Shown: positions 8,412-38,756 of the stretch, piece by piece
Numbering within the stretch: the stretch's first letter is position 1
How the letters are laid out: every line of letters starts with the position of its first letter
Source of the DNA: Clostridiales bacterium
GTDB taxonomy: Bacteria; Bacillota; Clostridia; Christensenellales; UBA1242
Assembly (NCBI GenBank): GCA_015055665.1
Contig: SVHX01000001.1
Coordinates: forward strand, 1,109-65,108
DNA length: 64,000 nucleotides
Direction: 5' to 3'
Notes under the pieces: model-generated
Told to the model about the DNA's origin: nothing
The model's input: the letters and a program-made list of their open reading frames with translations, nothing else
The model's database searches: none
Position numbers and translations under genes: made by a program

Positions 8412-8413
8412 TA

Positions 8414-8442: not shown

Positions 8443-8461
8443 TTGGGTAGAGAGGTGGATA

Positions 8462-8908: not shown

Positions 8909-9040
8909 CTGTATTTTTATCCAAGATTATAAATAAATATACAGGCTTTGGCTCTTTGATATGAGTGAATACGTGTGTTAAATTGAAGGCAAGTGCTAAC
9001 GGTCTAATATATAAATTATCTAGATTTTCATAATAATCAC

Positions 9041-9069
9041 TTGACAAGCTGGATTAATTAAGGTAAAAT
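9041..9069 (+). promoter_or_regulatory. SigA-type promoter for tRNA-Trp (TTGACA, 17 nt spacer, TAAAAT)
   Basis: TTGACA is at 9041-9046 and TAAAAT at 9064-9069, about 20 nt upstream of the tRNA 5' end. Confidence 0.6.
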
Positions 9070-9090
9070 ACCTAAGTTAATCTAGTACAT

Positions 9091-9165
9091 AGGGGTGTGG
9101 CTCAATGGTAGAGTAGCGGTCTCCAAAACCGTCGGTTGTGGGTTCGAGTCCTACCACCCCTGCCA
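9091..9165 (+). tRNA. trnW: tRNA-Trp (anticodon CCA), with encoded 3' CCA
   Basis: The acceptor stem is AGGGGTG/CACCCCT. The D-arm is GCTCAATGGTAGAGT, the anticodon loop CT-CCA-AA, the T-arm GTGGG-TTCGAGT-CCTAC, the discriminator G, and CCA is encoded. Confidence 0.9.
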
Positions 9166-9172
9166 AACTAAT

Positions 9173-9210
9173 AGCAACAAATTCGAAAATGAATTTGTTG
9201 CTTTGTTATT
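9173..9210 (+). terminator. Rho-independent terminator after tRNA-Trp
   Basis: A perfect 12-bp stem AGCAACAAATTC-GAAAAT-GAATTTGTTGCT is followed by a T-rich tract. Confidence 0.8.
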
Positions 9211-9319
9211 TATGCAGGGTAGGACTTGCAGACTTTGTCTGCCGACAACTTAGTTGTCGCAAACCCACAACTGTGGTGTATTCGGGAACCCTACCCGAAG
9301 ATTGACGCTACGCTTAATG

Positions 9320-9340
9320 CGAGTCCTACCACCCCTGCCA
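9320..9340 (+). repeat. Direct 21-bp duplicate of the tRNA-Trp 3' end (CGAGTCCTACCACCCCTGCCA), an att-like scar
   Basis: It is identical to 9145-9165 (T-loop 3' part, T-stem 3' strand, acceptor 3' strand and CCA). No matching 5' half of a tRNA lies upstream of it. Confidence 0.7.
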
Positions 9341-9453
9341 ATAAAAATTAGAACGCAAGAAATTGCGGTCATTTTTATTACTAGGAGTGGTAGAGGGGCT
9401 ATGCCCCTAGTAAGCTTTTGCTTGCGACTCGAACCGTATTCGTTGGCTTAGCG

Positions 9454-9488
9454 AAAAACAGTCTAATATGGCTGTTTTTTGTTTTTTT
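9454..9488 (+). terminator. Orphan rho-independent terminator closing the structured non-coding stretch 9205-9490
   Basis: An A-run, the hairpin ACAGTC-TAATAT-GGCTGT and then TTTTTTGTTTTTTT. No CDS ends here. Confidence 0.55.
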
Positions 9489-9638
9489 CTATGTTTATCG
9501 TTGATGCGATTTTGAGTTGTTGTTCTTGGAGGGATGTTGGTGTTTGTGAGAATTGTACAATGTAATTTCCAGTGATGTAAATTTTATTTAAAATTGTTTA
9601 TAAATTTGTCGAAAGGTGGTGTATTTCGTTGACTGAAT

Positions 9639-9667
9639 TTTGTATATATAATATAATAATTAACGAG
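9639..9667 (+). promoter_or_regulatory. Near-consensus SigA promoter of the giant gene (TTGACT, 17 nt spacer, TATAAT)
   Basis: TTGACT is at 9639-9644 and TATAAT at 9662-9667. The ~125-nt leader contains an 8-bp hairpin, CGTAGGCG-TGCT-CGCTTACG, at ~9686-9705. Confidence 0.6.
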
Positions 9668-9796
9668 ATAAGTATTTTTAATGCGCGTAGGCGTGCTCGC
9701 TTACGTATGTTAAATTAAAATACTAAAATAATTGCTGGTAAAATTTCAAATATTTCTGCAGCAATTACAAATAATAGATCTAGGAGATTATTTAAC

Positions 9797-12700
9797 ATGG
9801 TAAAGTCTAACAAACCAAATTTCAGAGTAAAGCATCCTTACGGATACCTAATCCAGAGTATCTTGATAGGCCTTGTAATGGTACTATCTGGTATTTTTTC
9901 CGTAGCGGCATACAATGTCTTTACTGGCATGGATAAGTCTAGCCCATCAATTAATACTGAGGCTGTAGGTGGAGTTACAGACACTGTTGAAACAGACCAA
10001 GAATTACCTACTCATTATGATCCAAATGGTGATTATCCAATTATTGGGTCAGGAACCAGTGCTGATCCTTTCTTGGTTACTTCGTGGGCGGAGCTTTTAT
10101 TCTTAAACCATGTTGCGAAAAATGTCTATTCGTATGACGAGTTGTATATTTCAATCGCTAATGATATTTTTATCTCATCTGCCCGCGTTACTTATTATGA
10201 GTATGATGGATACGAATATACTGAAGTCTATGGATGGACAAATCTTAGCACTGCACCAACATTACATATAATGGGGAACGATTTTACAATATTCTTAGAT
10301 TTTACAGATAGATCTGACTTTTCTCTTTTCGATGAAATTAATTCTTGCACTGTGACTGATCTGAATATTCTTGAGAATACATCTGGGACTGTCACCTACA
10401 AACATAGTGTTTTCGCATCTTGTATTTTTAATTCCTACATACATGATGTAAGATTCTCTGTTGGCCCAAATAGAACCACGATAATTTATGATGAACCTGC
10501 AAAAGCGAGTTATAATAACGGATCGGGATTGTTAGCGATGTTCTCTGCTGGAACAACATTTACTAATTGCGTAGTGGATCTTAGTAATGCTGCTGGTGGG
10601 GGAATAACTCTTCAGACTACATCCATATTTAAATTCTCATTAATTACTAATTCAGGAGTACCATCTGTATATACATCTAAGCCTTTGGACTATACATACA
10701 ATCAATTTTATGGATGTTCTGTTAGTGGGTTGATTACTCACAAATGTTTGACCAATAGCACTTCTTCCAGTTGTATTGCTGGAATATCAGAATATATTGG
10801 TAGGACAGGGTTTAATATTTATCCACGAATATGGTATTGCTATTCAGATATACAGTTTGCATTGACGGCGTCTGCATCTAACCCTGCATATACTGCTAGT
10901 GGTGGTAAATTATATGCCAGTGCGTTTAGTAATTTCTTTTACAGTGGTATGCAGGCACAGTATAATTATTTTGGAGCAGAGTCTCTTATCAATACCATTA
11001 ATACCTCGTATTATACAGTTGCAAGAGCAGATTACTTATCTTTAGGAACGTTCTTTACATATATTCAGGGTTCAGCATTAACTAATTCAACTGTAGTAAG
11101 ATACAATTATAATTCAGAATTGTTCGAAACAGATGCCGGATTCTTTAATGCTCATGACAATCAATATGTGTCTTATTGCTATTTTTATTCAGTGGCGGTT
11201 ACTAGAGGACCTAATGGTGGCGGAAAGACCGCAGCATATATGTATACTACTTTAGCATACAATGAGTCAATGCCGAGTGGACCATGGGTGAAGTCTACTA
11301 GAGCTGATGATTGCTTTAATACAACTACTGCCCGTGTAATGCCAGTTAATATATTGCCTTCTCATACGGATACATATGCTCAAACAACAGCGACGACAGA
11401 TAGTGATGGTTACTACCTTGTAGATACACCTGCTAAGATGATGTATGTTGATTACTTGAGTAGATACATGATGGAAGCAGGATCCTATAAGATTAAAGTT
11501 AAATTGACTGCTAATATAGATATGTCGGGGTATTTGTGGGCACCATTAGTAGATTATTTTACGGGTGGTCCCACCATTGATGGTGCAGGTTTCACTATAA
11601 GCAACCTAACTATGGATCAACATAGAAATGCTGCAGTTGGTAATACAACAATACTTACCGGTTCTAGCACTGGCACGAGAACTCCGGGATATGCGTATGC
11701 TCTGGGGCTCATAGGTAATATTCGTGGTGCGGCGACTATTCAAAATTTGAAGATGTCCGCAACTAATATTATTACATATTCACATAACTATAATACATTT
11801 CATATAAACAGGGATGTAGCAGATAGTTCTGAGGGAATTCATGCTATTTATGGAGCAGGTGTAGACTCAACGTCTACTACGGGGATAGGATCCTATGCTA
11901 ATAATCAACCAGTAGCAGCGGGGTGTTTTGTTGGTTCAGCAGCGTATTTTGGACATGCGGGATATGTGGGGGGTACTGTTACACCTGTTGGGAATGCTGT
12001 TAACATATACAACTCCACGAATATTAATACAACAATACATTTTAGAAGTACACCTATAACTAATGCGGCTTATGTTACTGTTCCTGTCAATACAGTACTT
12101 ACTGGTACTCGTTCTATGTATACAAGTTCTTGTATAGGGCGGTTGCTAAAGACAACCGTCACGTTGGATGGTGTTGTAACGTCTGGGTTTGTTAATAATA
12201 CAGCTGTTAATGCAACTAACAAACCAGGATCCATAATTGGTAATATTACTAAGACCAATTCTAGTGGTTCAAGTTATACGTCTACGATAACAGCATCATC
12301 GGTATATGCAGAAACATCTGCTACTACGAACTATATTCAAGACATTATCGGTGTTGCTAGGTATGCTACATCTCTTCAGACTCTTAATGTTACTGATTGT
12401 ATTTTACTTAATACTGCTACAAATTCGGATCTTACTTATCCAGCTAATAGATTGCTTACTGATAACGATATGACTACTTATGCTAATGAGGGTGGTAGTA
12501 CTACCACAATGTCGAATATAGCGTCGTACGCTAAGTCAACATCTGCTGAGATTTGGGGAGTCTATTCGATTTGTGAAGATTGTAATTATGGAAGCTCGTT
12601 AGTTTCGAATAATCCTGCGTCATATAAGGCTAGTTCATCATATGATGATTTTTACCAAATTGATTTTGTCTTATATAAGTGTGAGCCGTCTGCAGTCTTT

Positions 12701-15700
12701 TATGAGGTAACTGGTTCTGGCACAACACTTAACACTAACGGAGTTTATGTTCCTAGTGGAAGCGGTGGGGATAGGACATCGGATATAACGTCTCTTAAGT
12801 TTGCAAGGCTTCCTCACGAACAATTGGTACTTGACAACAGTCAGTATACACATATTGTTGCTGATGAAGATATGGCTGCATATTATGGTGCAACATTTGA
12901 TGATGGTGAAAATTGTTGTGGATATAGACCATCTTCGAGTAATTTTGATTACAACACCACTATGTCTAGCGGGCTAGCAGCGTTAGCTTCTGCCTGTAAT
13001 GCAGATTATACATATTATGTTCCGATTGTGGTAACCGCACCAATTACCGGGCCTAGATACTTCTTTGTGACTGAGTCAGATGACTTTAGGGGAACTTGGT
13101 CGGTTACTTTAACTGGAACCGGAACTTTAACGCAAGTACAAGACTTTCAGACGGGTGCTAATTATAATCCATCATCACTAAGTACGCTTGGTACTACATA
13201 TAGGGCTAGATTGTATAAGGTTAGCGGTTATAATAGTTCTACTCAAATAGTAATGTCATGTACAAATCAAATTGCATATGGAGAGCTTTATTCAACAAAT
13301 ACAACAAATGTTAAGGATTATGCTGCGTCGTTCTGGACCTGGGCATATAGTTCTGGAAAAAATAAAACCGAACAGTTAAAACCATGTACTAAAGGCACTA
13401 CTGGAGCCATTTCTTCAGGAGCAACTAATAAGACTTTAACTCTTCCTGTGAGTCAAATTAGAGCGTCTTACGATACAGATAATGCAGTTGTATATGGTGA
13501 TGTAGAGCACTTTATTGCTTCTTATAACACAACGGAAAGTGCCGAAACGGCAACTAATTATGCTAGCTTCGACATAGATATTTATAATAGATTCGTTACC
13601 GCAACCATTAATGGAGTTGGTAGACCTCTAATTTCAGGAGGAGTTTCGATCTATAATGAAGAAGGAACTGAAAGGGAAGCAAATATGGGTTATACCCGGT
13701 ATTATGAAATGTTAATCTTGTCTGGGCGAATAGTAGGACTTAGCGCTGAATGGAGCTATTTTGAGGATCCATTTGGTGCATCATTTGTGTCTGAGTATTG
13801 GGTTGATAAAAATAATAAAGGTATCTTAGCTCACCCTAACACCAATTATGGTCATTATAATACACATGCAACGCCTATATCTACGTCGACTGACTATAGC
13901 GATATTGTAGCACAATATGTAGATATGAGTGCACTGCCAACATATTATACATACCTAGTAATTGCTGCGTGTGATCCGAATTCACTCGCTGGTATCCGTG
14001 TTAATATTGAAACTGACAATCTTTGGTCTGATGGAGCATATGGTGATTTTGCCTATACAAGTTCAACAATACCTTTATCGTTTAATGGTACACCATTAAC
14101 TGATGGTGACATTCTTGAATTCTTTGTTACTAACACTATTGAAATGAACTTTGATTTATTAAATGCAGATAATCAAGTAGAGTATTGTAAGATTGAATTT
14201 GGTATAGAAGAATATGATGAAGAATCTTATAAATATGTTCTTTCTGAAGTCCTCTATACGCTCTACATTACTGGAAATACTAACGGAATTATTAACACCA
14301 CTACAACGCTTAGTAGTGCGACATCCCCTTCTAGGATGTTATCCCTGACATCATTTGAAATGCCGTATACATATTTTGATACTTATAATGAAGATGACGA
14401 ATGGTATACGGATGTGGATTACATGCAAGTGACATTTGGTGTTCTATCTTATTCAATGGTTGGTAAAGCTGTTGCATCAAGGTATAGTGGACCAACTCTT
14501 ACAAACAATACTTATACAATAACCAATCCGCTAGATTGGATGGTGTTATCTAGCAAAACCATTACTTCTGATGTAACCATCGAATTAGCTAATGATATCA
14601 ATTTTGAAACATTTAATTATGCTACGCCTCTTGGTCTAAGTGGAGATTTAACAGGCATCAGATTTGCTTCATCTGGCATCACCCTTTCGATGTCAGGGTT
14701 AGGCGCAACTAAGGGATCGCTTACAGTAGATGGAAATGGTTATACTATTACCGGAATCACTATGATGGTTGCCACAGGATTGTTTGGTGGTTTTGTAAAC
14801 AGTATGATTATTAGAGATATTTCATTTCATGAGCCGTATGCAAATAATTCTCCTTCATATGCAAACTTTAATCAATTTTATTGTGTAGCACAAACAGTCT
14901 TTGGTCAATTATTGGGTTCTGCAGGTCCAATTTATACAGCAGACAATGTTAATGTGACAAGTTCTAGTAGAACAATTGACCATGGCATGGTTATCTTCAG
15001 TATTCGAAGCTTACAGACGGGTACAGTTGAGATGGCTACAGATGTTACAATAACTCATTGCAGTATAGACGTTAAGATTAAACTTCATGATGGTTATTCT
15101 GTGCTTAACATGGCTGTATCTCCGTTCTTTGTCAGTGAGTATAATACAATAAATTCAAATCATTATTATGTTTCGATTACTGGAACATACATATTTAGTG
15201 ATTGTTATATGGTTGTTGACTATGAGACAACAACATCAATTGTAGATTACTTTTATATCGGAGAAAAGTATATGACCAACTGTTATTTTGTTGGTTATGA
15301 TCTTAAGTGTACATATTTAACTGTTGATAGAAGTGTTACATATTCGGCAGGAACAAAAGGAAAGCTGTATTACCAGCCGACTGCACATGGGACTATTAAT
15401 AATTCTACAACATATTTTACCAATCTGATTACATGTACAGCACTTACTGATGCTCAGATGAAGCAGAAGAGTAGTTTCTCTGGATTTACTTTTGGGCAGG
15501 GGAACTGGTACATGGATACTGGTGCTACTGGATATAATAGCTCTTATAAGCAGATTAATAGAGGTTATCCTGTTATATGGAATAGTGGTATAACCGTTGC
15601 CGAAGAGGCTACGCTTTCGTTTAAAGTTAATGGTGTTGCTTTGAGTAATACAACGATTAATAGTAATATGTATTACACGGTTGATGCTGATCAAACGACT

Positions 15701-33700: not shown

Positions 33701-36700
33701 AGATTAAAAGGAAGTATGGATAATAACCTACTTCTAAGTGATGTAACAATCACAGATTCTCAGTGGGACGAAACGTATGGTATTACTAATGCCCTCAACG
33801 ATCTAGAAGGTGCAGGTTATACGGCATTGCCAATTGAGAATGATATTAATAATATTACCTCTGCTACTGCTTACTATGATGTAACCGCAGGTCGCATCTC
33901 TATTACATTTACAGCTACAACCACTACTTGTGGCGAATATGTGGTAGACCTAGTTCACCAGTGGTTAGTTCAAGTAAGTATGAAGATAAGTACTGACGCT
34001 GGCGAGAATTACCCAGATGTATGGCTAAGCGGTAGTGCTAATGGCGAAACACTATTCACAGATAGAACTCTATCTCAGGTAGTAGATGCTAATGGCAATA
34101 CAATAGGCTACAATAGACAGTACATAGATGCAGATGGAACAACAGTTAATACGCTTAACCATGGTATCTACACAATAGGTAATACTAATTACAATTATAA
34201 TGCTACCGGCAATATTGAATATCCATTTAATTACTTGCCAGAAGCTACAAGAAATGTAAGTTACCAGAATATATTCGTAGATAACGGAAATTCAATTAAT
34301 GTGTACACATCACATACTCGTAACTATACCTTTAATGGATTCACAGATAGTGGAACCAATACCATAAGGACAGATACATTATCTCAACATTCTGCAGATT
34401 ATATTATCCTATACCACTATGTAACACTTACAATTACTCGTGCATATAGCGGAACTAATGCAGCTAATAGATTCATAGCACATTATACTCCAGCTATACA
34501 CAATGTTAATGTTATAGTGTCAGAGGGTGAGATCTGGGATTATAATCAACATAATGGTGAGGTCGAAGCTCCTGCATCAGTACTAGCCGGTAACGACATC
34601 AGCGACGACAAGGTAACAGGTACTAATATCAATAGCAGTGTATTGCATGGCGAAAGCATCACTATCAAGACACTTCCAGATATTAGATATATACTTAACT
34701 TTGTCGAAGTTAAATATTATAACTATATCACAGATGAGAACGAAGTTCGTAAATATCGTCTAAATAGCAATGGAACTATTTCTTATGTAGGCTATAAACC
34801 AGCTCAATTATCTCTACCAACTATGGAGATATATTCGGATGGATCTTGGATAACCTCTACAATATCTATGCCTTATACCGAGCCGGTAGTTAATTCTACA
34901 GGAGATAAGATAAGGACGTATGAAATAGTGCTTAATAATGTATACGGAGATATTGAAGTTAATATAGACTATATTAGACTATATTGGAACGATACTCCTA
35001 CAACAACTACTACACCATCTCCATCTGGCAAGACGGCAACTGGAGCTATAGATAATCCTTATATTATTGATTCAGCTCAAGACTGGGGCTGGATAGTAGA
35101 TAATGCAAGCGAATCTAATAACTACTTCGAAGGCAAATACTTTGAGGTTACAGCTGATATCGACTTCGAAGCAAGATTCATGCCAAGTATTCCAGTATTC
35201 AATGGAACAATTATCGGTAACGGACATTCATTTAGTAATGTCATACTAGATGGAAATGAATTACTATTGTTATTGCTAGACGGAGCTAATGATCAGGGAT
35301 CTATATTGGGACGTAGGAATTATCTTGGAGAATATAAAGCGATTATTTGCGAACAAGAATCATTAATGATCTATTATGGACTAATATGTGTAAGTCATGC
35401 TGGTCAAATACGAGATCTAGACTTTGTTGGGCTTGATTTAAGAGTTGTAAATACAGCTCCTGCTGAAGATTTGGATCTTATTGTAGGATCAATAGTTGCA
35501 TATTCTGATTCTCAGTATTTAGATGGTTGGACACTCAGAGATGTGACAATAGATAATACATCCAATATTTCTGTTACAGATTCATATTCTACGACAGAAA
35601 ATGCTTCGTTAATAGTTGGAGGTATGCTAGGTGCTTCCGCAAGAAACGGTGTTGAATATTCTAATAATATGGCTGATATTACAGTTAATATTAATAACAT
35701 TATATGTACTCATCCAGAATACATGAATAGTCATGTCGTTGGTGGAGTAGTAGGTGTTGGTAATATTAGAAACTCTATTAATTATGGAGATATTAATGTT
35801 ACAAGTAATCAAGCGGTTTTAGTTGGAGGAGTATTAGGATTTGGAAATTCTACGTTATTAATGTATGCTGATGCACTTATTAATCATGGTAATCTAACAT
35901 TGAATAGTTCTGCCGAAGGAGTAGCAGGGATTGCTGCAATTGGATGTTATAATGGAACAATCTACGATTCTTATAACACAGGCGTAGTTAGTGCTACAGG
36001 CGGATATACAGCTTATGCTGCTGCTAATACTGTTAATGGCTATTCAACAACAAGTATTAATAGTGATGCGGCATTTGACGAAGGATTTGAATACTTCCAT
36101 TACTATGATGTATCTAGTCTAAGCGAAGCTAATAAGATGGCGGAGAGCAGTTATGCAGAATTCGACTTTGATGCCGAGTGGACAATAGATACTAGCGAAA
36201 GTTCGACTTACAAGTATCCTAGACTATGGTTTGAGTGTGCTAATGGTAGTTGGGCAGACACAGACTTTAGTGGAATAACTTTGAATTCGCTATACGTATC
36301 AGGACTAGATGCTTATGTAATATCAACTGCCGAAGAACTTGCATATATGTCTTATATTACTAATCGTAATACATCTGGATATGAGGCACTTGATGGAAAA
36401 ACATTTATAATAGCCTCAGCCGATGGCATAGATATGAGTGGCAAGTGGTGGCAACCAATTGATACAGATATATCTCTTAATATTATTGGTATCAATATAG
36501 ATAAGGCTAATCTACGTGCATTTGATGTAAGTCACTTAGGTGCAGATCAGGGTGTATCTATAATTGGCTTAACATCAAGAATTAATGGTTTCATCCACAC
36601 AATTGGCAATACTACTACTCAATCTAGAGTAGCTGGTATCAATATAGAAAAGCTTACAGTTGCATCAGATATTGAAAGTGAATTTGAAATAGATGGTGTT

Positions 36701-38551
36701 AGTTGGACATATACGGCATCATTAGCTGGTGGAGCTACAAACACATTATTCGAATACTGCAATTATATTAGTGGATTGGTTAGCAATATTGATGGTGTTG
36801 CTAGTGGTTTAGTTGGTTATCTAGATGCTACTTCAATTGTATATGGATGTAGTGTAACAGGATATAACGAAGCTGAGATTGACAATGGCCATCTTGGAGA
36901 ACTACATAATTCTGCTAACTTTGGCGACGATTATGGTGGAAGAGTTATGTCTAATTATGTTGCAGTTGGATTAGTTGGAATCAATATTGGAACACTTAAA
37001 GAAAGTTACTTTAATGGTATCATTACTCGAAGTATAGCTAATAGCATTGTTGATAGTCGAACTCGTGATTCTGCAATTGCAATTGTAAATGTTGGAATTA
37101 CTAAGGATTGTTATGCTAAAGGTTTATTCAAAGATTATGATCTAGTTAATTCGCACATTTTTGCTGGATTGTATGATAATAGTGGATCACTAGAAAATAC
37201 TTACATTGCTATGAGTACATATAATTTTGATAATGTAAATTATTATATTATTTACTATAATGGTGGTGACACAATGGCTCGTAACTACTATCTAGTTGAT
37301 CTAGCAAGTGATCCTAAGGTTGCAGAGGGCTTGACTCGAGTATGTGGTGAAGGTAGTCTGACTACCGCGCAGATGCAGCAGATTAGTGACGAAGATCTTA
37401 GCGACTGGAGAACATTTAAGAAGAGTAGCGGTTGGGACTTCCGCGATATATGGACATATATTGATGGATACAATAGGGATTATCCTGTACTTCGTAAGAT
37501 ATATGGACCTGGACTATCTGAGATAGCGATTACTATATACAATCCGCACATGATGGTTGGTAGCACTCCTGTGCAGCTTGGAGATATGGTAATTAACCTA
37601 GACGAAGATATCCTAGAGTGGAACGACACAACTGGTGTATACAGTATCTATGGAGAGCTTAATACTCATCCAACGCTCAATATACCAGTGCTAACACTTA
37701 TGTATACAGTGCCTATTGATTATATCAACGAGATTGTTGTATCTAATACTGGAGAAGGTCTCATTACGAGTGTAATCTTTGGAGAGAGATATCCAGCAGG
37801 AACCGACCTTAATGGAACTATTCTTGAATCGGAAATCACTAATTATAGCGAATATGCGGGCAAGAATAAGGCAACAAATGATGGAACGACATACAACAAT
37901 AATGATGATATTGTTATTACTCAGATGTTTGATGAGAAGTACTATGGACTATTCATCACTTACGAAGAGAGAGATTTCAATATCACAGTTAATGCTGATA
38001 TGACAGCTCATGCTGATACTGATGGAGTACTAGAGACTGACATTATGACAGTTGTATTAGTACATTGTGATGATTCTGGTGTAGTTGATTATGCTTATAC
38101 AATTACATTAGGTGATGGCGATACTGTAAGTCTAACTGATATCTATAATGGTACTTATGACAAGCAGTATGACAATACCGATTACAAAGGCAACACAAGG
38201 AGTCTTACATACGACGACTTTGGCTCGTGGACGATATACGCATATCTACCACTATTCTACGAGAACAATACTACTGATGTTGGTATAACTAATACTATTG
38301 ATACTACTCATCCAACACTAAGTAATATCGATAGGAAGATATACGACTTAAGTAGTAACACAGTTGTTGATGCAACTGCTCCAAGTATATTACCTTTAAG
38401 CGGTATTAATAATAGTCAGATTGGTGTTAATTGTTTAGGTACATTTACACTAGATACAATGGTTAGAGATGTTACAATTAACATTACTATCCATAAGGCT
38501 CTCGAACACTGGTTACATGCTAGTGCAAGTAATGGTTATTCTAACTATTAA
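9797..38551 (+). CDS. Giant (9,584 aa) N-terminally membrane-anchored surface protein: multi-module parallel beta-helix (GLUG-motif type) adhesin-like protein with a long Thr/Ser/Asn-rich beta-sandwich stalk
   Basis: One uninterrupted 28,755-nt ORF in AT-rich DNA, with AGGAG ~10 nt upstream of the ATG. The N-terminus is a K/R-rich stretch plus a ~23-aa hydrophobic helix (LIQSILIGLVMVLSGIFSVAAY). At least 9 modules start with a (D/N)P(F/Y)xI...L..L...-xxxxL(T)A(D/N)IDL...W.P(I/V)...F.G.(I/L)DG.G(Y/H).I.N(L) cap. These are followed by GG(V/I/L)(V/L)G-type GLUG-like rungs and end in a ...(Q/E)M......(W/F)DF..(V/I)W......YP(V/I)L-like cap. There is no LPXTG or other C-terminal sorting signal. Confidence 0.9.
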   Translation: MVKSNKPNFRVKHPYGYLIQSILIGLVMVLSGIFSVAAYNVFTGMDKSSPSINTEAVGGVTDTVETDQELPTHYDPNGDYPIIGSGTSADPFLVTSWAELLFLNHVAKNVYSYDELYISIANDIFISSARVTYYEYDGYEYTEVYGWTNLSTAPTLHIMGNDFTIFLDFTDRSDFSLFDEINSCTVTDLNILENTSGTVTYKHSVFASCIFNSYIHDVRFSVGPNRTTIIYDEPAKASYNNGSGLLAMFSAGTTFTNCVVDLSNAAGGGITLQTTSIFKFSLITNSGVPSVYTSKPLDYTYNQFYGCSVSGLITHKCLTNSTSSSCIAGISEYIGRTGFNIYPRIWYCYSDIQFALTASASNPAYTASGGKLYASAFSNFFYSGMQAQYNYFGAESLINTINTSYYTVARADYLSLGTFFTYIQGSALTNSTVVRYNYNSELFETDAGFFNAHDNQYVSYCYFYSVAVTRGPNGGGKTAAYMYTTLAYNESMPSGPWVKSTRADDCFNTTTARVMPVNILPSHTDTYAQTTATTDSDGYYLVDTPAKMMYVDYLSRYMMEAGSYKIKVKLTANIDMSGYLWAPLVDYFTGGPTIDGAGFTISNLTMDQHRNAAVGNTTILTGSSTGTRTPGYAYALGLIGNIRGAATIQNLKMSATNIITYSHNYNTFHINRDVADSSEGIHAIYGAGVDSTSTTGIGSYANNQPVAAGCFVGSAAYFGHAGYVGGTVTPVGNAVNIYNSTNINTTIHFRSTPITNAAYVTVPVNTVLTGTRSMYTSSCIGRLLKTTVTLDGVVTSGFVNNTAVNATNKPGSIIGNITKTNSSGSSYTSTITASSVYAETSATTNYIQDIIGVARYATSLQTLNVTDCILLNTATNSDLTYPANRLLTDNDMTTYANEGGSTTTMSNIASYAKSTSAEIWGVYSICEDCNYGSSLVSNNPASYKASSSYDDFYQIDFVLYKCEPSAVFYEVTGSGTTLNTNGVYVPSGSGGDRTSDITSLKFARLPHEQLVLDNSQYTHIVADEDMAAYYGATFDDGENCCGYRPSSSNFDYNTTMSSGLAALASACNADYTYYVPIVVTAPITGPRYFFVTESDDFRGTWSVTLTGTGTLTQVQDFQTGANYNPSSLSTLGTTYRARLYKVSGYNSSTQIVMSCTNQIAYGELYSTNTTNVKDYAASFWTWAYSSGKNKTEQLKPCTKGTTGAISSGATNKTLTLPVSQIRASYDTDNAVVYGDVEHFIASYNTTESAETATNYASFDIDIYNRFVTATINGVGRPLISGGVSIYNEEGTEREANMGYTRYYEMLILSGRIVGLSAEWSYFEDPFGASFVSEYWVDKNNKGILAHPNTNYGHYNTHATPISTSTDYSDIVAQYVDMSALPTYYTYLVIAACDPNSLAGIRVNIETDNLWSDGAYGDFAYTSSTIPLSFNGTPLTDGDILEFFVTNTIEMNFDLLNADNQVEYCKIEFGIEEYDEESYKYVLSEVLYTLYITGNTNGIINTTTTLSSATSPSRMLSLTSFEMPYTYFDTYNEDDEWYTDVDYMQVTFGVLSYSMVGKAVASRYSGPTLTNNTYTITNPLDWMVLSSKTITSDVTIELANDINFETFNYATPLGLSGDLTGIRFASSGITLSMSGLGATKGSLTVDGNGYTITGITMMVATGLFGGFVNSMIIRDISFHEPYANNSPSYANFNQFYCVAQTVFGQLLGSAGPIYTADNVNVTSSSRTIDHGMVIFSIRSLQTGTVEMATDVTITHCSIDVKIKLHDGYSVLNMAVSPFFVSEYNTINSNHYYVSITGTYIFSDCYMVVDYETTTSIVDYFYIGEKYMTNCYFVGYDLKCTYLTVDRSVTYSAGTKGKLYYQPTAHGTINNSTTYFTNLITCTALTDAQMKQKSSFSGFTFGQGNWYMDTGATGYNSSYKQINRGYPVIWNSGITVAEEATLSFKVNGVALSNTTINSNMYYTVDADQTTYRVYHTNGSTNTTLGHSSHEVLFTLTSDAGKFQTSQGASMNLIFTGPNTSWANSDANRDRGYGFKINGVKYKTTALSLTTPSSGVMTIPISSYEASSNTIEVSVETLYVVLIGLREGGLASNVANSGYIAPGSDSGNYTAWGTIIGHKYYFYKKIDFNLKTTYASVIIYTDGCYTFPSSGSSNDMMTFYDTTNRKYQSDSTTVYKRSFNVASGTITSLNYTATKPTSTVDGTNNNYLVYDSTGSTTGGNIMWYLVRTVVVTSTVSGTAGASTGNFTFQIGTNTELNGNYGNQTQYRYQFGYDLNHHYRESTVTIRITTADQYKKIATCYTSNSPGGTAVYDLVAAANALRGSNYSDYHIKNIVLVITPSFNAMADSTGNVTMTVTFAKVGQADVELSGTSAGGSDIGQSLFGQTVKFGSSYDASRTALAFNMSYADATLPVTLNVTHVGTTPANATNDKITVTYGGTSTAQTLTGQTSKTAKAYTYQVLPGAAATFTISGVTAVTNSTGFPFLIYKSNNYNVRFVWSTSAITNLSTSTLTDDLSYTTGTISAATTLYLYIVEVQAYTMTSSISSTYKCEVLDLMSSKSITVNLSYKNNSGTAIATQTGVQTYSSSATVFSDVTISGYTTIPTVAVTSSSATSSDYTFSGNPLTATTGKKLNLSGLVTNASNGTITGPATATNSATAATGSTWTVKTVTIKVYVLNLDLQDEASPNIYYWGIGSNSALNSVVSLSSLSGDISVSSVKLFNVVKSTESSRNIYTITMAKASPVKITRGDDYGSNSRILMPITMNPNEQAMEQYTHVAGNYIGVRGYILSSETASTPAEIIFTYAPLVTIGIASSELADVSYNSVQAKALKHDAITNETISANVYSGGSNNNVTIAPEASNNTAKTYTYNLGSTNSSTPVDIKITITASVSVAGYDFYGWYVGAHGVITSASANTTSTGAKTSVRYVIDNSGTTKSLTIYMNQDCFSYNIASGNYSATVNFYPIFRERIVASGTTNSSLTVNGKIKAELIDTYSSTSSTIYTVNNTSQASASVNNKNLYYYGIYYLSTTPGTYAITGTTLNGGSETGWNGTAAKNAEIVKGTALSGACQIVVNATSRHSFTESNPQYTYIDKTSKDNAGNAGVSFISTHDLSSGSYTYTNWKYGIGSGTTFTNYANNNANYLLTHYTVTIDTTKLVLRVGVSGATYTDDVGTYTFAVNNYCVLSATLTNNFGSTSHSITVQAHFIERPAVVAVTGGDATVGAVTSGVTMRYVRIGSTVSSYSGGVVFTDMGGTATTINTKTSLGSIDGLTYFRYDLGSSKVLASIQLSGTTTGAQIVEISNDGSNWYTVADVFMGDNVTALIDFIADSHINTSAETYYPLVGGYTYIIRSSESDCKYATYTTIPTEDPASGTSVTASGVTINLSSNSGTVYLYVNKNFNIVISNATTLGSLGTQNIFTSVANRSSYNSVGIRLVNSHDTYIDHYNTTNYVQHNLTGLSITPITVYSYKYIKFGAISSVLDMKTDVINDNDSSNNSYIDTALSNLTYAPTTNVGNYYRYFRKSNSASGASDAVKNAHKMRYDYTGNIPLWATLSTTSNTDTSTINATWTSNATTSIVVTFNDTGANTTYNLKGTYTEKTLTRYFGCGHASNAHSGCGVDNTTLTIHTNSRTHTGTYSGATYKVTSIISSNAIASTVFGTGMQGTTVGNRGDLTITAGYFTIFKVETDNNINGNTGNDLVDKWTIVDSVVSSNNSTFNQYKGASRSSYSANVSDAIYGNWIQTETIKTVATYPTNTVRIYHAFVIPVRVSLDAKIVQRNTSLTINYIDDATYNSANDDKLYFEMKWGSIAVGIISVTQGGGSSYLRWDSTNKNIILKSGIAYDVQFNETYDYMGICHYDSNTNKSKHGNVTYVTSTSSTNAYKESANKHYEPTTDDWLKLAIGSNTSGMSSGATLTLTAYFNLYGRIFVNGYDVTSSREPINDATISYTGGVVTNIASGTNTRSITYTTSSAAGSNTYAYFLEGSNPVFVANKGRNSARTIATLPQNVYRVSNFTDRTAFGSGKTPTVAKGTSAMSYSDTSNSKFVKDRLTHTTHADEVGQGGGSDHYYVVIYQTYIPHKVGILAMQFDMTMGNTQSGISTAINGVVSGYQCTVSYETSVFVYTDTFGNKLYVWGNSACNAVPAMTMEGLIPVGGGYIASTNLYYSYNESESPAVYEFNKWTLYDSYASSNWATSDSATNPSAVNTLGASHYTCFISNSYAYPSTTYSVVLKLDYVFTVNLVYRIKTASTGSYSITTQFAGNNFVSIGTSSSPSWKSVANANIALTYSATSRNIYVAAKAPNVSDVRFRIEAFKFATSIDAAGDTLITCNTSSDTALNKGYGYINHNITINNATHGYYFVDIIPVYSFGYATGNDADVVSNNNYSVETYVSTTASNGKYEGLTGFDESLSGYSYAVSGTTYYDAWSVLTITPQLIDGFSGYHKTGTKVGWESANGVTNWVTNVPIATTTSGIYTVTFNPYSSGTTLWDKSFFTGLKYNVQEKTITVNVYLGLVDTAGNSVTYTNALALPQATVVFTTDNISDASVTRTIAADTTLTSMESAAYTKGYYGWVQAVVTITNAGTNTYLFHETDQFRTTGNNITCSSAIVNSITGHNINTESLTTNRLTGTLKLIDDIPASPDKSTTAYLTSSSTNGNIVVSANLVQLFYATINIMTLGEDGISNSDTPLDSFAITNNKVFADGTAGGSTFAIVYDSGIKGYKITTQIEYLDDLSFSLDTIIEPKYSEGTYIRGYIYSFISVNGGRNITSSVNTTNNVMTVNSADMYQAVTIDIYYIPVVELELNISAGKGTLETTFANFNNDGGSNESVGYYTYSGGNATYNNRTNLIYATADTKPTGSVSIATAAISNTQTITATSSAVTRYVYIPMLHAANSKTNLAPVYYTSTATAYVENSANLADRERYIPDVLTYYVTAYSMHNTYVYTFDGNTYTREEMASGFKSDGTAIAQRETANPDVTLTTNFAKTIGTTNYTQYPTNYPASASDTSKLANNFIPMYAKYSSGDNHEGNHRVTCNFLKEYTFSYETYLSYVHANENYMTMKIDGNTYSEYDDVSGTTGRILNFTNIHVTTADAEQELILDWDTDTYEAIYYTSSKKTSSASADVVNVGAPVISDSVAKIINISDLGSNNAYYISQKYVQKSNLTININPTNFTADDQPQISIAQSPVDPGTKVPSGATPIGTSSTFIGSVASNVYTPNNVYVHNATSEVNTISAVLQSDVNYTLCAEYLDPNIFGYYFAGFYFQGQSTSIENITPEDYLSKVEPPTNITINGETILGYTYTFSPLTVLNNTIIARYIRIDQPNDIINISGNAHVEISYSSATSLGAIAAGNTYKTDMTKYSQPINTIQKEDREVSSVTRNFVIFDIYPGYKTDITTVVTGYKNSTLDLTTNFSYGKVSGQNYYRLAIFIGNFTNNGLTDLYHDYALLISIVAKSQTWADNTLAVSKTNGVYKVANGYQLAYCLYNPDIAGSADTEIELTANIDLEDYLWIPVNNFRGTINAKSYTIYNINTATNSTTITNGAPDPSNTTTGLTSIGNSSGLYGTIDARFQNEYDNTEEYDTRGKVFHTSIGGSPNIGDIDSLANEITYYTYAEQTGTGLLGYTENAEIYDLRIAAYNNVYYNTTKVSSNYPYLVMGSMVATANNTYIVNSSINNYGGVGVSYSSLMSVPTIVPIGMLVGKMTGFGIIDGVNVISGTNLSSTVSGPQDAGSYVGGVLGMSSTATAKTYSTSSVSASTHIINVSQLANFSVSSSTATAGVVAIQDTDAVIYISETILGITGSASGSLAPLCQNISDSSDIKVDNTYVSQFVTNASNTTVTSTSGIANNFNNGKWKLSGATPVALRRAIRDTYTPTNVSIADNTTYLITTGQELINHLYSAQTSYSSATGVKLRITNNIDLGNIIWRSYNLPAGYTLDGGGYTITGLLLNDEKPYTADGLTGSAFASCGLVNNVYGTIKNVVISDAYSIIVGDDTVNNEATNSSYDIDDVDIDYFGFVARTLQAAGRVQQSIISGLNESYTNATVIKIGGVVGSDITASNGLYEVEFTGTIDVYSYIKAFTIGGISATSGDANARLHSAAKINVYNLAPTTTSYIGGIIGNSTTGQTLTDSYYGNGSSIDIHGLSATNIKIGTISGGSSNLTRVYNGYNTNYPISGVSASSTNVYSLFGTSKNLEPTKANTLALAKANMTGYDFINVWTVNTDISGTGYPYPILIGNLNAHDITLIAEIEGMGSGETAINAGTIVDHATNYNGDATWGNSYHIDSTLSGDNKLNTQIAKALHSTTLTSHTVTVTPATGYHIARIELDDVTIYSGRMTYESNNNDPQTFDINTMFSTYESSFTAQYAKTLAEESEHTIKVVFSKDFWYIESGIYDLTSGAYQNNDNTDGSGASPTAYGVMASKYGQITTTTSNTFNLTHANGSDLYNNNSAGNTNHWTLANSKTDYYYIDTYPTLESTVSFTFNSRVEYGSGNSIIASRLVGWVYVPIISSNINTSITVSELIANNAYMMISNTGAVSFGTPTGGYTNYIEELFDNSKLDNSGITTDNTTITYTTKDGDKVTNNYISGSTITVRPEESPYGSGVFYAVVEYIAVGSFNDQIHTHIHDIDECFTDGVITCNDDFHAISHTVTSGAFSSSDKEAANCIISTDSTIKYRDEAGSQIDITWGDYIPNGAGHSEDAPQVTLTLANIIAGRVIGRFARTFYDLETDTVRTWYYVYDEVATTVLNTIYEINGSTKTIIFNRKDGEAPVNYDQYINHINNFRVENFTTVTTDPVTGIKYATSELRLTNWTIEYAGQYTFFLRENLYDVTTQITNPQNETETLVYVSSQELGTSGRSSTFLAGVKTDENGVSYYKIGAGSYAVLENNIVHEEVVMAGVYNLIVQVHYNAGSIIIFTQIPNNYFMHHTFKTGSKYRLSDKVGVLARDLTDPTTGLNTVSKTTSYTQTAVNTGVRDNGYLYYIYEVDSTITDIDKTYFYDYGRLTNEAANMIIEVTFEEDKFTYFDQLGLDVTGLTTATPESVTVTGDASITDAEGFISKYIDFTLVSGDNGLTRDTAFVLNNPYKLGYLAYLINEGVQINGKGASQYIYQVVGTLDMYDRYWDTISIFINGTIFGTNINENLYTTATIDNLQLSASDESGFIDLFVGATISDINFTNMDYNHDATHTYNSYILFNLLVSATLDRISVTGTKVDCNNSVGLIYNFGATSILNESYIGLVTKAGSSSNPNGKFIFEAVDKHATIKDSYINVGGYLGNDYTTLLPQCHNTIIEKSGTSTTHTVSGTNHIIDSNFYTKSESEAKSILTDIDTTRIWKYNATTKTFDMVKLQTYELANVAYKVSGTAPTAGDGSKYNPYIIDSLAKYYWFVDKMNTDASYNDDAKYYALGADIDFAGYYVDVIDDFRANLDGRGYVLKNMYYYNNTLVNFAPIITNNGVVDRLYISNINLKSVYTDYSTDTYSAGLISSNNGTLSRTSINGNMISNASYHAGAVAHNYSDGIVDTVIISKNNTINSNIISSAAGESDVVAGVIALDEATTANMLGVEDTNILGYCNIAGVTYSETYISVSNLYSKNIYIGQYNVQNASVVVLNSDTVISISNIYSTATYGNDDDIEGLVVYNLGDGDINITYAYALSQASVPVAYSEGGAVNSVMTESLSASEMTTTKFDPSSWDYARVWSVYGSTPVFKYFNDNIIQLPFGEDYDYIDASTIDDVYGATNQYYTYNIDANDNNRRVAGKYIVVRNASTGDNYIIEVLSGSENGVNIMQTGVGGSTLSQREIVINPDGTIYIYKGATATINVTSVMYRHITEIRLRNYNDTSVDDIEENTQGYQMTYDGDYTNNHRLTDGNKVGVTFTIIPTLDISDMYDRDRFDYYVTISDAIDTYDVSLSRTQNTSTTNNLIYDATITDGTNTVTIRNNIADKDMADGEKLTLSNIEHGKTVTISLALNPTILAKVDENIRVDKWRLKGSMDNNLLLSDVTITDSQWDETYGITNALNDLEGAGYTALPIENDINNITSATAYYDVTAGRISITFTATTTTCGEYVVDLVHQWLVQVSMKISTDAGENYPDVWLSGSANGETLFTDRTLSQVVDANGNTIGYNRQYIDADGTTVNTLNHGIYTIGNTNYNYNATGNIEYPFNYLPEATRNVSYQNIFVDNGNSINVYTSHTRNYTFNGFTDSGTNTIRTDTLSQHSADYIILYHYVTLTITRAYSGTNAANRFIAHYTPAIHNVNVIVSEGEIWDYNQHNGEVEAPASVLAGNDISDDKVTGTNINSSVLHGESITIKTLPDIRYILNFVEVKYYNYITDENEVRKYRLNSNGTISYVGYKPAQLSLPTMEIYSDGSWITSTISMPYTEPVVNSTGDKIRTYEIVLNNVYGDIEVNIDYIRLYWNDTPTTTTTPSPSGKTATGAIDNPYIIDSAQDWGWIVDNASESNNYFEGKYFEVTADIDFEARFMPSIPVFNGTIIGNGHSFSNVILDGNELLLLLLDGANDQGSILGRRNYLGEYKAIICEQESLMIYYGLICVSHAGQIRDLDFVGLDLRVVNTAPAEDLDLIVGSIVAYSDSQYLDGWTLRDVTIDNTSNISVTDSYSTTENASLIVGGMLGASARNGVEYSNNMADITVNINNIICTHPEYMNSHVVGGVVGVGNIRNSINYGDINVTSNQAVLVGGVLGFGNSTLLMYADALINHGNLTLNSSAEGVAGIAAIGCYNGTIYDSYNTGVVSATGGYTAYAAANTVNGYSTTSINSDAAFDEGFEYFHYYDVSSLSEANKMAESSYAEFDFDAEWTIDTSESSTYKYPRLWFECANGSWADTDFSGITLNSLYVSGLDAYVISTAEELAYMSYITNRNTSGYEALDGKTFIIASADGIDMSGKWWQPIDTDISLNIIGINIDKANLRAFDVSHLGADQGVSIIGLTSRINGFIHTIGNTTTQSRVAGINIEKLTVASDIESEFEIDGVSWTYTASLAGGATNTLFEYCNYISGLVSNIDGVASGLVGYLDATSIVYGCSVTGYNEAEIDNGHLGELHNSANFGDDYGGRVMSNYVAVGLVGINIGTLKESYFNGIITRSIANSIVDSRTRDSAIAIVNVGITKDCYAKGLFKDYDLVNSHIFAGLYDNSGSLENTYIAMSTYNFDNVNYYIIYYNGGDTMARNYYLVDLASDPKVAEGLTRVCGEGSLTTAQMQQISDEDLSDWRTFKKSSGWDFRDIWTYIDGYNRDYPVLRKIYGPGLSEIAITIYNPHMMVGSTPVQLGDMVINLDEDILEWNDTTGVYSIYGELNTHPTLNIPVLTLMYTVPIDYINEIVVSNTGEGLITSVIFGERYPAGTDLNGTILESEITNYSEYAGKNKATNDGTTYNNNDDIVITQMFDEKYYGLFITYEERDFNITVNADMTAHADTDGVLETDIMTVVLVHCDDSGVVDYAYTITLGDGDTVSLTDIYNGTYDKQYDNTDYKGNTRSLTYDDFGSWTIYAYLPLFYENNTTDVGITNTIDTTHPTLSNIDRKIYDLSSNTVVDATAPSILPLSGINNSQIGVNCLGTFTLDTMVRDVTINITIHKALEHWLHASASNGYSNY

Positions 38552-38723: not shown

Positions 38724-38756
38724 AATAAAAAGCACCCAGCGGCTAAGTTGGGTGCT
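38724..38756 (-). terminator. Rho-independent terminator of the ABC operon (minus strand)
   Basis: The stem AGCACCCA/TGGGTGCT has a 10-nt loop. On the minus strand it is followed by TTTTTATT, just downstream of the permease stop. Confidence 0.7.

What the first reader, a model, noticed from the sequence alone, without database searches (positions are those of the whole stretch)
10046..37500. At least nine diverged beta-helix modules with conserved N-cap and C-cap motifs inside the giant protein
Nine N-cap motifs recur. Examples are GTSADPFLVTSWAELLFL (~10046), YYLVDTPAKMMYV...LTANIDMSGYLWAPL...IDGAGFTISNL (~11400), YTITNPLDWMVL...LANDINF...VDGNGYTITGI (~14505) and YKVANGYQLAYCL...LTANIDLEDYLWIPV (~26168). 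The others are YLITTGQELINHL...ITNNIDLGNIIW...LDGGGYTITGL (~27400), FVLNNPYKLGYLAYL (~30974), YNPYIIDSLAKYYWF...LGADIDFAG...LDGRGYVLKNM (~31850), DNPYIIDSAQDWGWI...VTADIDFE...GNGHSFSNV (~35040) and YVISTAEELAYMSYI (~36301). Each is followed by rungs of the GGxxG type (IGGVVGS, IGGIIGN, VGGVVGV, VGGVLGF, ASGLVGY, AVGLVGI). Most end in a cap such as LTDAQMKQKSSFSGFTFGQGNWYM...RGYPVIW (~15443-15590), ANMTGYDFINVWTV...GYPYPILIG (~28365-28465), LSASEMTTTKFDPSSWDYARVWSV (~32775-32880), ANKMAESSYAEFDFDAEWTI...YPRLWF (~36115-36235) or LTTAQMQQISDEDL...SGWDFRDIWTYIDGYNRDYPVLRKI (~37358-37500). This architecture matches what I recall of GLUG-motif proteins (IgA1-protease-associated and large Firmicute surface proteins), but nine divergent copies in one chain is unusual. 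It suggests an array of distinct binding or enzymatic heads on one stalk.
Basis: partly seen in the sequence, partly recalled or inferred. Interest (0 to 1): 0.7.

Follow-up and report, generated by a model that had tools for sequence, protein, structure and literature searches.

The report
Giant surface protein with nine beta-helix modules

Summary
Eight score clearly above shuffled controls; M6 is marginal. That profile matches the solved solenoid 3N6Z (E 4e-30) and the beta-helix NTD2 domain of S. pneumoniae IgA1 protease (E 4e-17). Most of the modules it was built from carry Pfam GLUG. The GLUG recollection is therefore right by homology. However, Pfam GLUG and Peptidase_M26_N find nothing in the window protein, because its rungs are largely eroded.

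"Nine copies is unusual" is wrong. The N-cap profile finds 100,506 protein clusters, and each of the best 150 has 5-20 copies. Three things do stand out:
- the length;
- about 6,000 aa of orphan spacer, including one 3.5-kaa module-free stretch;
- extreme divergence from syntenic orthologues (26-28% identity against 56-85% for flanking genes) although module positions are kept.

There is one N-terminal transmembrane helix, no protease domain and no sortase signal. The most likely reading is a fast-evolving fibrillar adhesin. That function is inferred, not shown.

The parts
9797..38551 (+). Giant ORF, 9,584 aa. Composition is T 12.7%, S 10.1%, N 8.5%, Y 7.5% and K+R 5.1%.
   Evidence: No Pfam, NCBIfam or PDB sequence hit on the whole protein. 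The exact sequence is not in the 15-billion protein collection.
9797..10135 (+). N-terminal leader. It has a basic motif KPNFRVKHPYGYL followed by the only TM-like helix (aa 21-38, nt 9857-9910). It is a signal anchor or a long signal peptide. This is the only part conserved at BLAST level with orthologues (39-54% identity).
10043..10951 (+). Module M1 (aa 83-385). A degenerate beta-helix module with no recognisable C-cap.
   Evidence: External HMM 11.4 bits against shuffle maximum 3.9. hhalign 66%. The L003 orthologue has a clearer module (43 bits) at the same position, aa 63-392.
11363..12532 (+). Module M2 (aa 523-912).
   Evidence: 48.4 bits in both the external-HMM test and the leave-one-out N-cap test. 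hhalign 96.6%.
14468..15580 (+). Module M3 (aa 1558-1928). The N-cap carries an insertion of about 25 aa. The C-cap is LTDAQMKQ...RGYPVIW.
   Evidence: 28.4 bits. Leave-one-out 13.7 bits. The C-cap is conserved with L003 and L005.
15581..26131 (+). Central spacer of 3,517 aa with no module, no Pfam domain and no internal repeat. It holds a colinear conserved patch (aa 3263-3445, nt 19583-20131) with sub-threshold discoidin-like hits.
26132..27334 (+). Module M4 (aa 5446-5846). A long insertion follows the N-cap.
   Evidence: 24.8 + 7.4 bits. Leave-one-out 17.6 bits. Contains GGVLG at aa 5723.
27401..28459 (+). Module M5 (aa 5869-6221). Rungs IGGVVGS and IGGIIGN. C-cap ANMTGYDFINVWTV...GYPYPILIG.
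   Evidence: 50.8 bits. The AF2 model is confident only in the N-cap.
30929..31786 (+). Module M6 (aa 7045-7330). The most degenerate module, with marginal support.
   Evidence: 4.3 bits against shuffle maximum 3.9. 6.9 bits with the A3 HMM, which does not contain it. BLAST to the M9 N-cap at E 0.002. hhalign 32%.
31796..32920 (+). Module M7 (aa 7334-7708). It has the best C-cap.
   Evidence: 56.8 bits. C-cap HMM 14.7 bits.
35033..36220 (+). Module M8 (aa 8413-8808). The most canonical module, with three GGhhG rungs.
   Evidence: 71.9 bits. hhalign 98.2%. AF2 pLDDT 68, pTM 0.66. The top 50 Foldseek matches in PDB are right-handed beta-helices.
36308..37504 (+). Module M9 (aa 8838-9236). Rungs ASGLVGY and AVGLVGI. 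C-cap SGWDFRDIWTY...YPVLRKI.
   Evidence: 37.3 bits. BLAST to the multi-module protein P0015 at E 5e-9.
37505..38548 (+). C-terminal 348 aa with no recognisable domain, no LPXTG sorting signal and no TM helix.

Best explanation
The ORF encodes a real 9,584-aa exported protein of an uncultured, spore-forming, Christensenellales-like gut Clostridia bacterium.

Shown here:
- The protein contains nine modules of about 300-400 aa. They are homologous to the widespread 'GLUG-type' right-handed beta-helix module: an N-cap helix plus a DIDL...W.PI...F.GT.DG.G.TI strand, then G-G/L-h-h-G rungs, then a ...DF..vW......YP.L C-cap.
- That is the same module as PDB 3N6Z and the NTD2 domain of M26 IgA1 proteases.
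- The modules lie as M1-M2, M3, a 3.5-kaa module-free stretch, M4-M5, M6-M7 and M8-M9.
- They are about 20% identical to one another. Their rungs are so eroded that Pfam GLUG no longer detects them.
- The remaining 63% of the chain is orphan, polar sequence rich in Thr, Ser, Asn and Tyr.

Inferred:
- The single N-terminal hydrophobic helix directs Sec export and probably holds the protein in the membrane.
- The chain extends from the cell as a long fibre.
- Each beta-helix module offers a different flat binding surface for glycans or proteins of the host, the diet or other microbes. This makes it a multi-headed fibrillar adhesin rather than an enzyme.
- The locus evolves very fast under diversifying pressure, while the module layout is kept.
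For: A real gene: 28.7 kb open in 35% GC DNA.

Module homology:
- The external HMM gives nine hits at the nine predicted places and none elsewhere, with a shuffle maximum of 3.9 bits.
- hhalign gives 92-98% for seven modules. The window-only profile against canonical modules gives 97.3%.
- The N-cap profile finds 3N6Z at E 1.3e-5.

The family is GLUG and beta-helix:
- 11 of 13 canonical modules carry PF07581.
- 7,800 proteins match the canonical profile. 119 of the 120 listed carry PF07581, and many are named 'GLUG motif-containing protein'.
- The canonical profile hits 3N6Z at E 4e-30 and IgA1 protease structures 6XJA/6XJB/7JGJ at E 4e-17.
- NTD2 of IgA1 protease is a beta-helix (PMC9637739). 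3N6Z is a solenoid with GLUG-like repeats (PMC4021314).
- The AF2 model of M8 has pLDDT 68 and pTM 0.66. It is all-beta with capping helices. Its 50 best PDB matches are right-handed beta-helices, including SRRP and PfbA adhesins, pectate lyases and IgA1 protease.

Surface location: one TM-like helix at aa 21-38, preceded by basic residues and conserved in orthologues.

Adhesin reading:
- Peptidase_M26_N-type domains were flagged as candidate adhesive domains of fibrillar adhesins (PMC9210967).
- GLUG proteins of gut archaea have been proposed as adhesins (PMC9723798).
- No catalytic domain was found.

Fast evolution with kept layout:
- The L003 orthologue has modules at aa 63-392, 523-833 and 1552-1845, then none up to aa 5287.
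- Global identity is 26-28%, against 24-25% for shuffled sequence.
- The flanking genes YunB, IscS, ThiI, RNase Y and RNase H are 56-85% identical.
Against: - Pfam Glug and Peptidase_M26_N do not detect anything in the window protein.
- The rung-only profile is barely above shuffles.
- The Foldseek matches are not significant (E>=0.012, TM about 0.2-0.25) and both AF2 models are of moderate or low confidence. The fold therefore rests mainly on homology.
- M6 is marginal.
- No wall anchor (LPXTG, SLH, LysM, CWB) and no recognised stalk domain is present. Retention on the surface is assumed.
- No ligand, expression or localisation data exist.
- The function of GLUG modules is unknown even in canonical proteins.
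Confidence: 0.65

Rival explanations
1. The modules are enzymatic heads: beta-helix polysaccharide lyases, hydrolases or epimerases, as in pectate lyases, polygalacturonases or tailspikes. The protein would be a multi-enzyme glycan-degrading fibre.
Against: Those matches are non-significant and reflect the generic fold. No Pfam or NCBIfam lyase or hydrolase family hits any module, even at E<=10. The sequence homologues are GLUG/NTD2 modules, which have no known catalytic role; in IgA1 protease NTD2 is a gating domain. No residue apart from a few glycines is conserved across the nine modules.
Confidence: 0.15
2. It is a structural envelope, sheath or exosporium fibre of a spore-former, not an adhesin. 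The beta-helix modules would act as rigid spacers or self-association units.
For: The genome encodes sporulation protein YunB next to the locus. The protein has extreme length and polar, low-charge composition. It has no recognised adhesive or catalytic domain.
Against: The sequence diverges very rapidly between related species while housekeeping neighbours are conserved. That is more typical of proteins facing the environment than of structural scaffolds. No collagen-like or other repeats typical of exosporium fibres are present.
Confidence: 0.1
3. It is an IgA1-protease-type (M26) enzyme or a relative of one, as the PDB names of the closest structures might suggest.
For: The closest solved homologues of the module are named IgA1 protease.
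Against: There is no M26 catalytic domain. The only HExxH in 9,584 aa is an isolated HEGNH at aa 5016, in a region with no Pfam hit. Only the NTD2-like beta-helix is shared.
Confidence: 0.02
4. The recurring motifs are chance similarities in a compositionally biased giant protein, and there are no homologous modules.
For: Pairwise BLAST between modules is weak outside the N-caps. The internal leave-one-out test for C-caps fails. M1 and M6 fail the internal N-cap test.
Against: The external profile hits exactly the nine predicted sites and nothing else, above 50 composition-preserving shuffles. The top five C-cap hits are the five predicted ones. hhalign gives E 2e-11.
Confidence: 0.02

Closest known systems
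Multi-module 'GLUG motif-containing' giant surface proteins of Bacillota and other phyla (Pfam PF07581 Glug with PF05342 Peptidase_M26_N). An example is MCL2110993.1, 'YDG domain-containing protein' of a Clostridiales bacterium: 7,498 aa with 11 N-cap matches.
   Same: The module anatomy is the same (N-cap, rungs, C-cap). Module length is the same: spacing between successive N-caps has a median of 359 aa. Many modules sit in one chain, 5-20 in the best 150 hits.
   Different: In those proteins the modules are mostly tandem and fill about 85% of the chain, and most carry clear GLUG rungs. Here the modules fill 37%, lie in pairs between long orphan spacers, and escape the Pfam models. Some database members, such as P0017, also escape Pfam. 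At 9,584 aa the window protein is longer than any of the best 150 hits, whose maximum is 7,830 aa.
PDB 3N6Z, BACOVA_03286 'putative immunoglobulin A1 protease' of Bacteroides ovatus, a single-module protein.
   Same: A profile of the window's N-caps plus three from syntenic orthologues matches its residues 47-112 (E 1.3e-5). The canonical module profile matches it end to end (residues 41-359, E 4e-30). It has been described as a solenoid with GLUG-like repeats (PMC4021314).
   Different: It is a single module of 363 aa with unknown function. No direct full-length sequence match to any window module by phmmer.
NTD2 'gating' beta-helix of M26 IgA1 metalloproteases (S. pneumoniae 6XJA/6XJB/7JGJ, G. 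haemolysans 7UVL).
   Same: It is homologous to the canonical module (E 4e-17 and 8e-11) and is described as a beta-helix (PMC9637739).
   Different: There the module is an accessory to a zinc-protease domain and gates its active site. The window protein has no protease domain.
Beta-solenoid adhesin domains of Gram-positive fibrillar adhesins: the L. reuteri SRRP binding region (5NXK/5NY0) and S. pneumoniae PfbA (4MR0).
   Same: They are right-handed beta-helix heads on very long surface proteins of gut or mucosal Bacillota. They are among the top structural matches to the M5 and M8 models.
   Different: The resemblance is structural only and non-significant (E>=0.006). The window protein has no serine-rich repeats, no LPXTG and no accessory Sec genes nearby.

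Membership tests
Pfam Glug (PF07581) | Match to the 28-residue GLUG motif HMM at or above the gathering score (20.5 bits). | tested here: not met
   No hit on the two halves of the protein at E<=1 or on any of the nine modules at E<=10. Only six strict GGhhG motifs remain, in M4, M5 and M8.
Pfam Peptidase_M26_N (PF05342) | Match to the HMM at or above 27.7 bits. Its positions of about 150-250 correspond to the N-cap and first rungs. | tested here: not met
   No hit. Proteins retrieved with the window's N-cap profile do match it at positions 148-250.
GLUG-type beta-helix module (operational superfamily: N-cap + rungs + C-cap, as in 3N6Z and IgA1 protease NTD2) | Near full-length match to a profile of canonical modules, above composition-matched controls. 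| tested here: met
   Nine hits covering about HMM positions 20-320 of 352. Eight score 11.4-71.9 bits against a shuffle maximum of 3.9; M6 scores 4.3. hhalign gives 92-98% for seven modules and 97.3% for the pooled window profile.
GLUG-type beta-helix module | Right-handed parallel beta-helix fold. | tested here: inconclusive
   AF2 of M8: pLDDT 68, pTM 0.66, all-beta with capping helices. AF2 of M5: pLDDT 54. The best Foldseek matches for M8 and nearly all for M5 are right-handed beta-helices, but E>=0.006 and TM is about 0.2-0.3. The fold is supported indirectly by homology to 3N6Z and NTD2.
M26 IgA1-specific metalloprotease | Zinc-metalloprotease domain with HEMTH/HExxH plus a downstream Glu. 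| tested here: not met
   No Peptidase_M26_C or other protease family hit. The single HEGNH at aa 5016 has no domain context.
Fibrillar adhesin (sensu Monzon et al. 2022) | Repeated stalk domains, an adhesive domain and a cell-surface anchor. | tested here: inconclusive
   Candidate adhesive modules are present. There is an N-terminal TM helix but no LPXTG or wall-binding domain. The spacers have no recognised stalk domain and no detectable repeats.
Serine-rich repeat proteins (SRRP) | Long Ser-rich dipeptide repeats, a KxYKxGKxW-type signal peptide and an accessory SecA2/Y2 locus. | tested here: not met
   No tandem or direct repeats. The leader is different. The neighbours are housekeeping genes.

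The most novel reading that the evidence does not exclude
This chromosomal site lies downstream of RNase Y, RNase H and, in the window, tRNA-Trp. In a clade of uncultured gut Christensenellales-like bacteria it holds a giant surface gene that is under strong diversifying selection. The orthologue checked most fully keeps the leader, the length scale and the positions of the beta-helix modules, while nearly all sequence identity is lost. Each of the nine modules would then be an independently evolving, species-specific binding head, for example for host glycans, secretory IgA or phage decoying. The eroded GLUG rungs would mark a distinct, so far unmodelled subfamily of the beta-helix module.
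Probability: 0.3. Interest if true: 0.5.

Novelty: new variant of a known kind. Interest (0 to 1): 0.3.

Why it matters
The finding shows that a very common surface-protein building block can erode until curated models (Pfam, NCBIfam) miss it completely. The N-cap profile finds this block in about 100,000 protein clusters. Here a 9.6-kaa protein is left with no annotation. For gut microbiology it points to a giant, fast-evolving, probably surface-exposed protein in a poorly known Clostridia lineage. That makes it a candidate for host or particle attachment and a possible strain or species marker. It is not a new mechanism. The module type, the multi-module architecture and the adhesin hypothesis are all already in the literature.

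Tried and rejected
- Pfam and NCBIfam on the whole protein, on each module and on ten spacer tiles: nothing significant.
- phmmer of both halves against PDB: nothing.
- Word-indexed homologue search with M8-M9: 8,000 candidates, none significant.
- The search for related loci with M8-M9 in GTDB genomes, and with aa 1-600 in JGI metagenomes: no relatives.
- Exact look-up of the protein: not in the collection.
- Internal leave-one-out HMM for C-caps, including my own guesses for M1, M2, M4 and M6: not above shuffles. It was replaced by the external C-cap HMM.
- AF2 of M5 using only window modules and N-cap fragments as the alignment: pLDDT 54, usable only for the N-cap.
- Foldseek searches: fold-consistent but non-significant.
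- Search for further modules, repeats, protease motifs or sortase signals in the spacers: none.
- Extension of the L003 orthologue. The first scan added 7.4 kb. The second was wasted, because the collection is stored in fixed 8-kb blocks and the same block was returned. The full orthologue could not be recovered.
- The discoidin-like hint at aa 3225-3345: sub-threshold in Pfam (E 0.03-0.08) and unsupported by a PDB profile search.
- The IgA-protease reading was rejected for lack of a catalytic domain.
Full report
**1. What is there**

The window has about 35% GC. It carries one uninterrupted ORF at 9797-38551 (+) of 9,584 codons. Its neighbours are core chromosomal genes:
- upstream: YunB, an IscS-like aminotransferase, ThiI, RNase Y, RNase H and tRNA-Trp;
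- downstream: an ABC-2 transporter, PadR, a XerC-like integrase, LexA, MiaA, MutL, MutS, MiaB, a class A PBP and RecA.

RNase Y is 81-85% identical to that of uncultured gut 'Clostridiales/Clostridia/Christensenella' MAGs. The host is therefore a spore-forming, Christensenellales-like gut bacterium.

The protein is polar: T 12.7%, S 10.1%, N 8.5%, Y 7.5% and K+R 5.1%. It has a single TM-like stretch at aa 21-38, after a basic N-terminus. It has no LPXTG signal with a C-terminal anchor and no protease-type HExxH context.

**2. Check of the observation**

Pairwise BLAST between the nine proposed modules is significant only for N-caps: M7-M8 2e-8, M2-M4 3e-7 and M2-M5 3e-5. It is weak for C-caps.

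In a leave-one-out HMM test against 50 block-shuffled copies of the protein, seven N-caps scored 13.7-48.4 bits against a shuffle maximum of 8.2. M1 and M6 did not pass. The same internal test failed for C-caps.

GGhhG-type rung motifs are enriched inside the modules:
- six strict motifs, all in M4, M5 or M8 (shuffled mean 0.38);
- 26 loose motifs against 7.1 in shuffles.

**3. Independent test with outside sequences**

A profile of seven window N-caps plus three from orthologues found canonical N-cap fragments in the 5.8-billion protein set (E 1e-9 to 7e-5; one carries PF05342). It also found PDB 3N6Z at E 1.3e-5.

An exhaustive profile search of 1.84 billion cluster representatives gave 100,506 proteins at E<=1e-3. 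The best 150 are 1.5-7.8 kaa proteins with 5-20 N-cap copies each:
- median 8 copies; 53 have at least 9;
- spacing between successive N-caps has a median of 359 aa.

From 250 such inter-N-cap segments I built a 352-position HMM that contains no window sequence. Its consensus shows an N-cap, a VGLFG rung, repeated VGGIVG rungs and a C-cap of the form kTtaELk...ldFnnvWa...YPvL.

Searched against the giant protein with all filters off, this HMM gives positive scores at exactly nine places.

| Module | Bits |
|---|---|
| M8 | 71.9 |
| M7 | 56.8 |
| M5 | 50.8 |
| M2 | 48.4 |
| M9 | 37.3 |
| M3 | 28.4 |
| M4 | 24.8 + 7.4 |
| M1 | 11.4 |
| M6 | 4.3 |

The best score in 50 shuffled proteins was 3.9 bits.

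Splitting the HMM into its three parts gives the following:
- N-cap: the eight best hits are M8, M7, M2, M4, M5, M9, M3 and M1.
Three of them are above the shuffle maximum.
- Rungs: scores are weak (best 4.9 bits), but the eight best hits all fall inside modules.

hhalign gives 92-98% probability for seven modules, 66% for M1 and 32% for M6. It gives 97.3% (E 2e-11) for the pooled window profile against canonical modules.

Conclusion: nine modules are present. Eight are secure and M6 is marginal. The rungs are largely eroded.

**4. What the module is**

Eleven of 13 canonical modules carry Pfam Glug and three carry Peptidase_M26_N. Multi-module hits such as P0013, P0083, P0022 and P0041 carry Glug, and the first three also Peptidase_M26_N.

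A search with the canonical alignment returned 7,800 proteins. 119 of the 120 listed carry PF07581, and many are named 'GLUG motif-containing protein'.

The canonical profile matches solved structures:
- 3N6Z end to end, E 4e-30;
- S. pneumoniae IgA1 protease chains at residues 109-380, E 4e-17;
- G. haemolysans IgA1 protease, E 8e-11.

The literature describes that IgA1 protease region (NTD2) as a beta-helix that gates the active site (PMC9637739). It describes 3N6Z as a previously unrecognised solenoid whose repeats are distantly related to GLUG (PMC4021314).

An AF2 model of M8, using GLUG proteins as the alignment, reached pLDDT 68 and pTM 0.66. It has confident N- and C-caps and an all-beta body. 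Its 50 best PDB matches are right-handed beta-helices, but none is significant (E>=0.012). The M5 model, built on a shallow alignment, was confident only in the N-cap.

The beta-helix assignment therefore rests mainly on homology. The models are consistent with it.

Pfam Glug and Peptidase_M26_N themselves detect nothing in the window protein. The modules are therefore filed as a diverged variant of the GLUG-type module, not as Pfam family members.

**5. Architecture and evolution**

The modules lie as M1-M2 (aa 83-912), M3 (1558-1928), a 3,517-aa module-free stretch, M4-M5 (5446-6221), M6-M7 (7045-7708) and M8-M9 (8413-9236), followed by a 348-aa tail.

They occupy 37% of the chain, against a median of about 85% in the best database hits. 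The spacers have no Pfam, NCBIfam or PDB match, no internal repeats and no DNA repeats.

Three related MAGs have a giant ORF at the same place, downstream of RNase Y and RNase H. Each is open to the end of the fetched DNA: at least 2,967, 5,287 and 2,809 aa.

Only the leader (39-54% identity over 41-115 aa) and a few patches are alignable by BLAST. Global identity is 26-28% against 24-25% for shuffled sequence. The five flanking genes are 56-85% identical.

Yet the L003 orthologue has modules at aa 63-392, 523-833 and 1552-1845 and none from there to aa 5287. This mirrors M1-M3 and the long spacer of the window protein. The layout is conserved while the sequence is not.

**6. Function**

Nothing here tests function. 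I commit to a Sec-exported, N-terminally tethered fibrillar adhesin that displays nine different beta-helix binding surfaces. The grounds are:
- the export/anchor signal;
- the size and composition;
- the absence of any catalytic domain;
- the rapid divergence, typical of exposed proteins;
- published proposals that Peptidase_M26_N/GLUG domains are adhesive (PMC9210967; PMC9723798).

The rivals are listed with their odds: enzymatic heads, a structural fibre, an IgA-protease relative and chance.

**7. Novelty**

The claim of rarity was not: proteins with 9-20 such modules are common in public data.

What is new is modest:
- a very diverged subfamily that escapes current models;
- an unusually long protein with about 6 kaa of orphan spacer;
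- a conserved-layout, hyper-divergent locus in an uncultured gut lineage.

Noticed in passing
window 9091-9165 (+): A tRNA-Trp (CCA) gene lies in the 890-nt gap between RNase H and the giant gene. The rest of the gap (9166-9796) has no Rfam match at gathering thresholds.
   Followed up: partly
window 19583-20131 (giant protein aa 3263-3445); L003+L081 giant aa 3279-3500: This is the only well-conserved colinear patch inside the central spacer (30% identity, E 2e-11 to the L003 orthologue). The stretch just upstream of and overlapping it gives sub-threshold hits to F5/8 type C (discoidin, galactose-binding) domains (E 0.03-0.08). It may be a buried carbohydrate-binding domain. A PDB profile search did not support this.
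   Followed up: partly
window 9797-9931 (aa 1-45); L001, L003 and L005 giant ORF starts: A conserved leader motif, KPNF(R/K)VKHPY.YL, immediately precedes the TM helix in all four orthologous giant proteins. It was not seen in the 150 canonical multi-module proteins. It may be a lineage-specific export or retention signal.
   Followed up: partly
database proteins P0017 (3,688 aa, 10 N-cap matches) and P0031: Some large multi-module proteins retrieved by the N-cap profile have no Glug or Peptidase_M26_N hit in Pfam; P0017 has no Pfam hit at all. The N-cap and C-cap of this module are not covered by a dedicated curated model, although the N-cap profile finds about 100,000 clusters.
   Followed up: partly
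window 645-2309 (+) and 47637-48695 (+): A large serine recombinase (Resolvase + Recombinase + Zn ribbon + DUF4368) lies near the window start. A tyrosine integrase lies next to LexA. These are possible mobile-element or Xer-type functions, not obviously linked to the giant gene.
   Followed up: no
window 42862-44730 (-): A 622-aa ORF has a PadR domain only in its first 92 residues. This is unusually long for a PadR regulator, and the remainder is unannotated.
   Followed up: no
window 38731-38756 (+): A terminator-like hairpin with a 10-bp stem lies about 180 nt after the giant gene's stop codon. It sits between the giant gene and the convergent ABC-2 permease gene (38766-40904, -).
   Followed up: no
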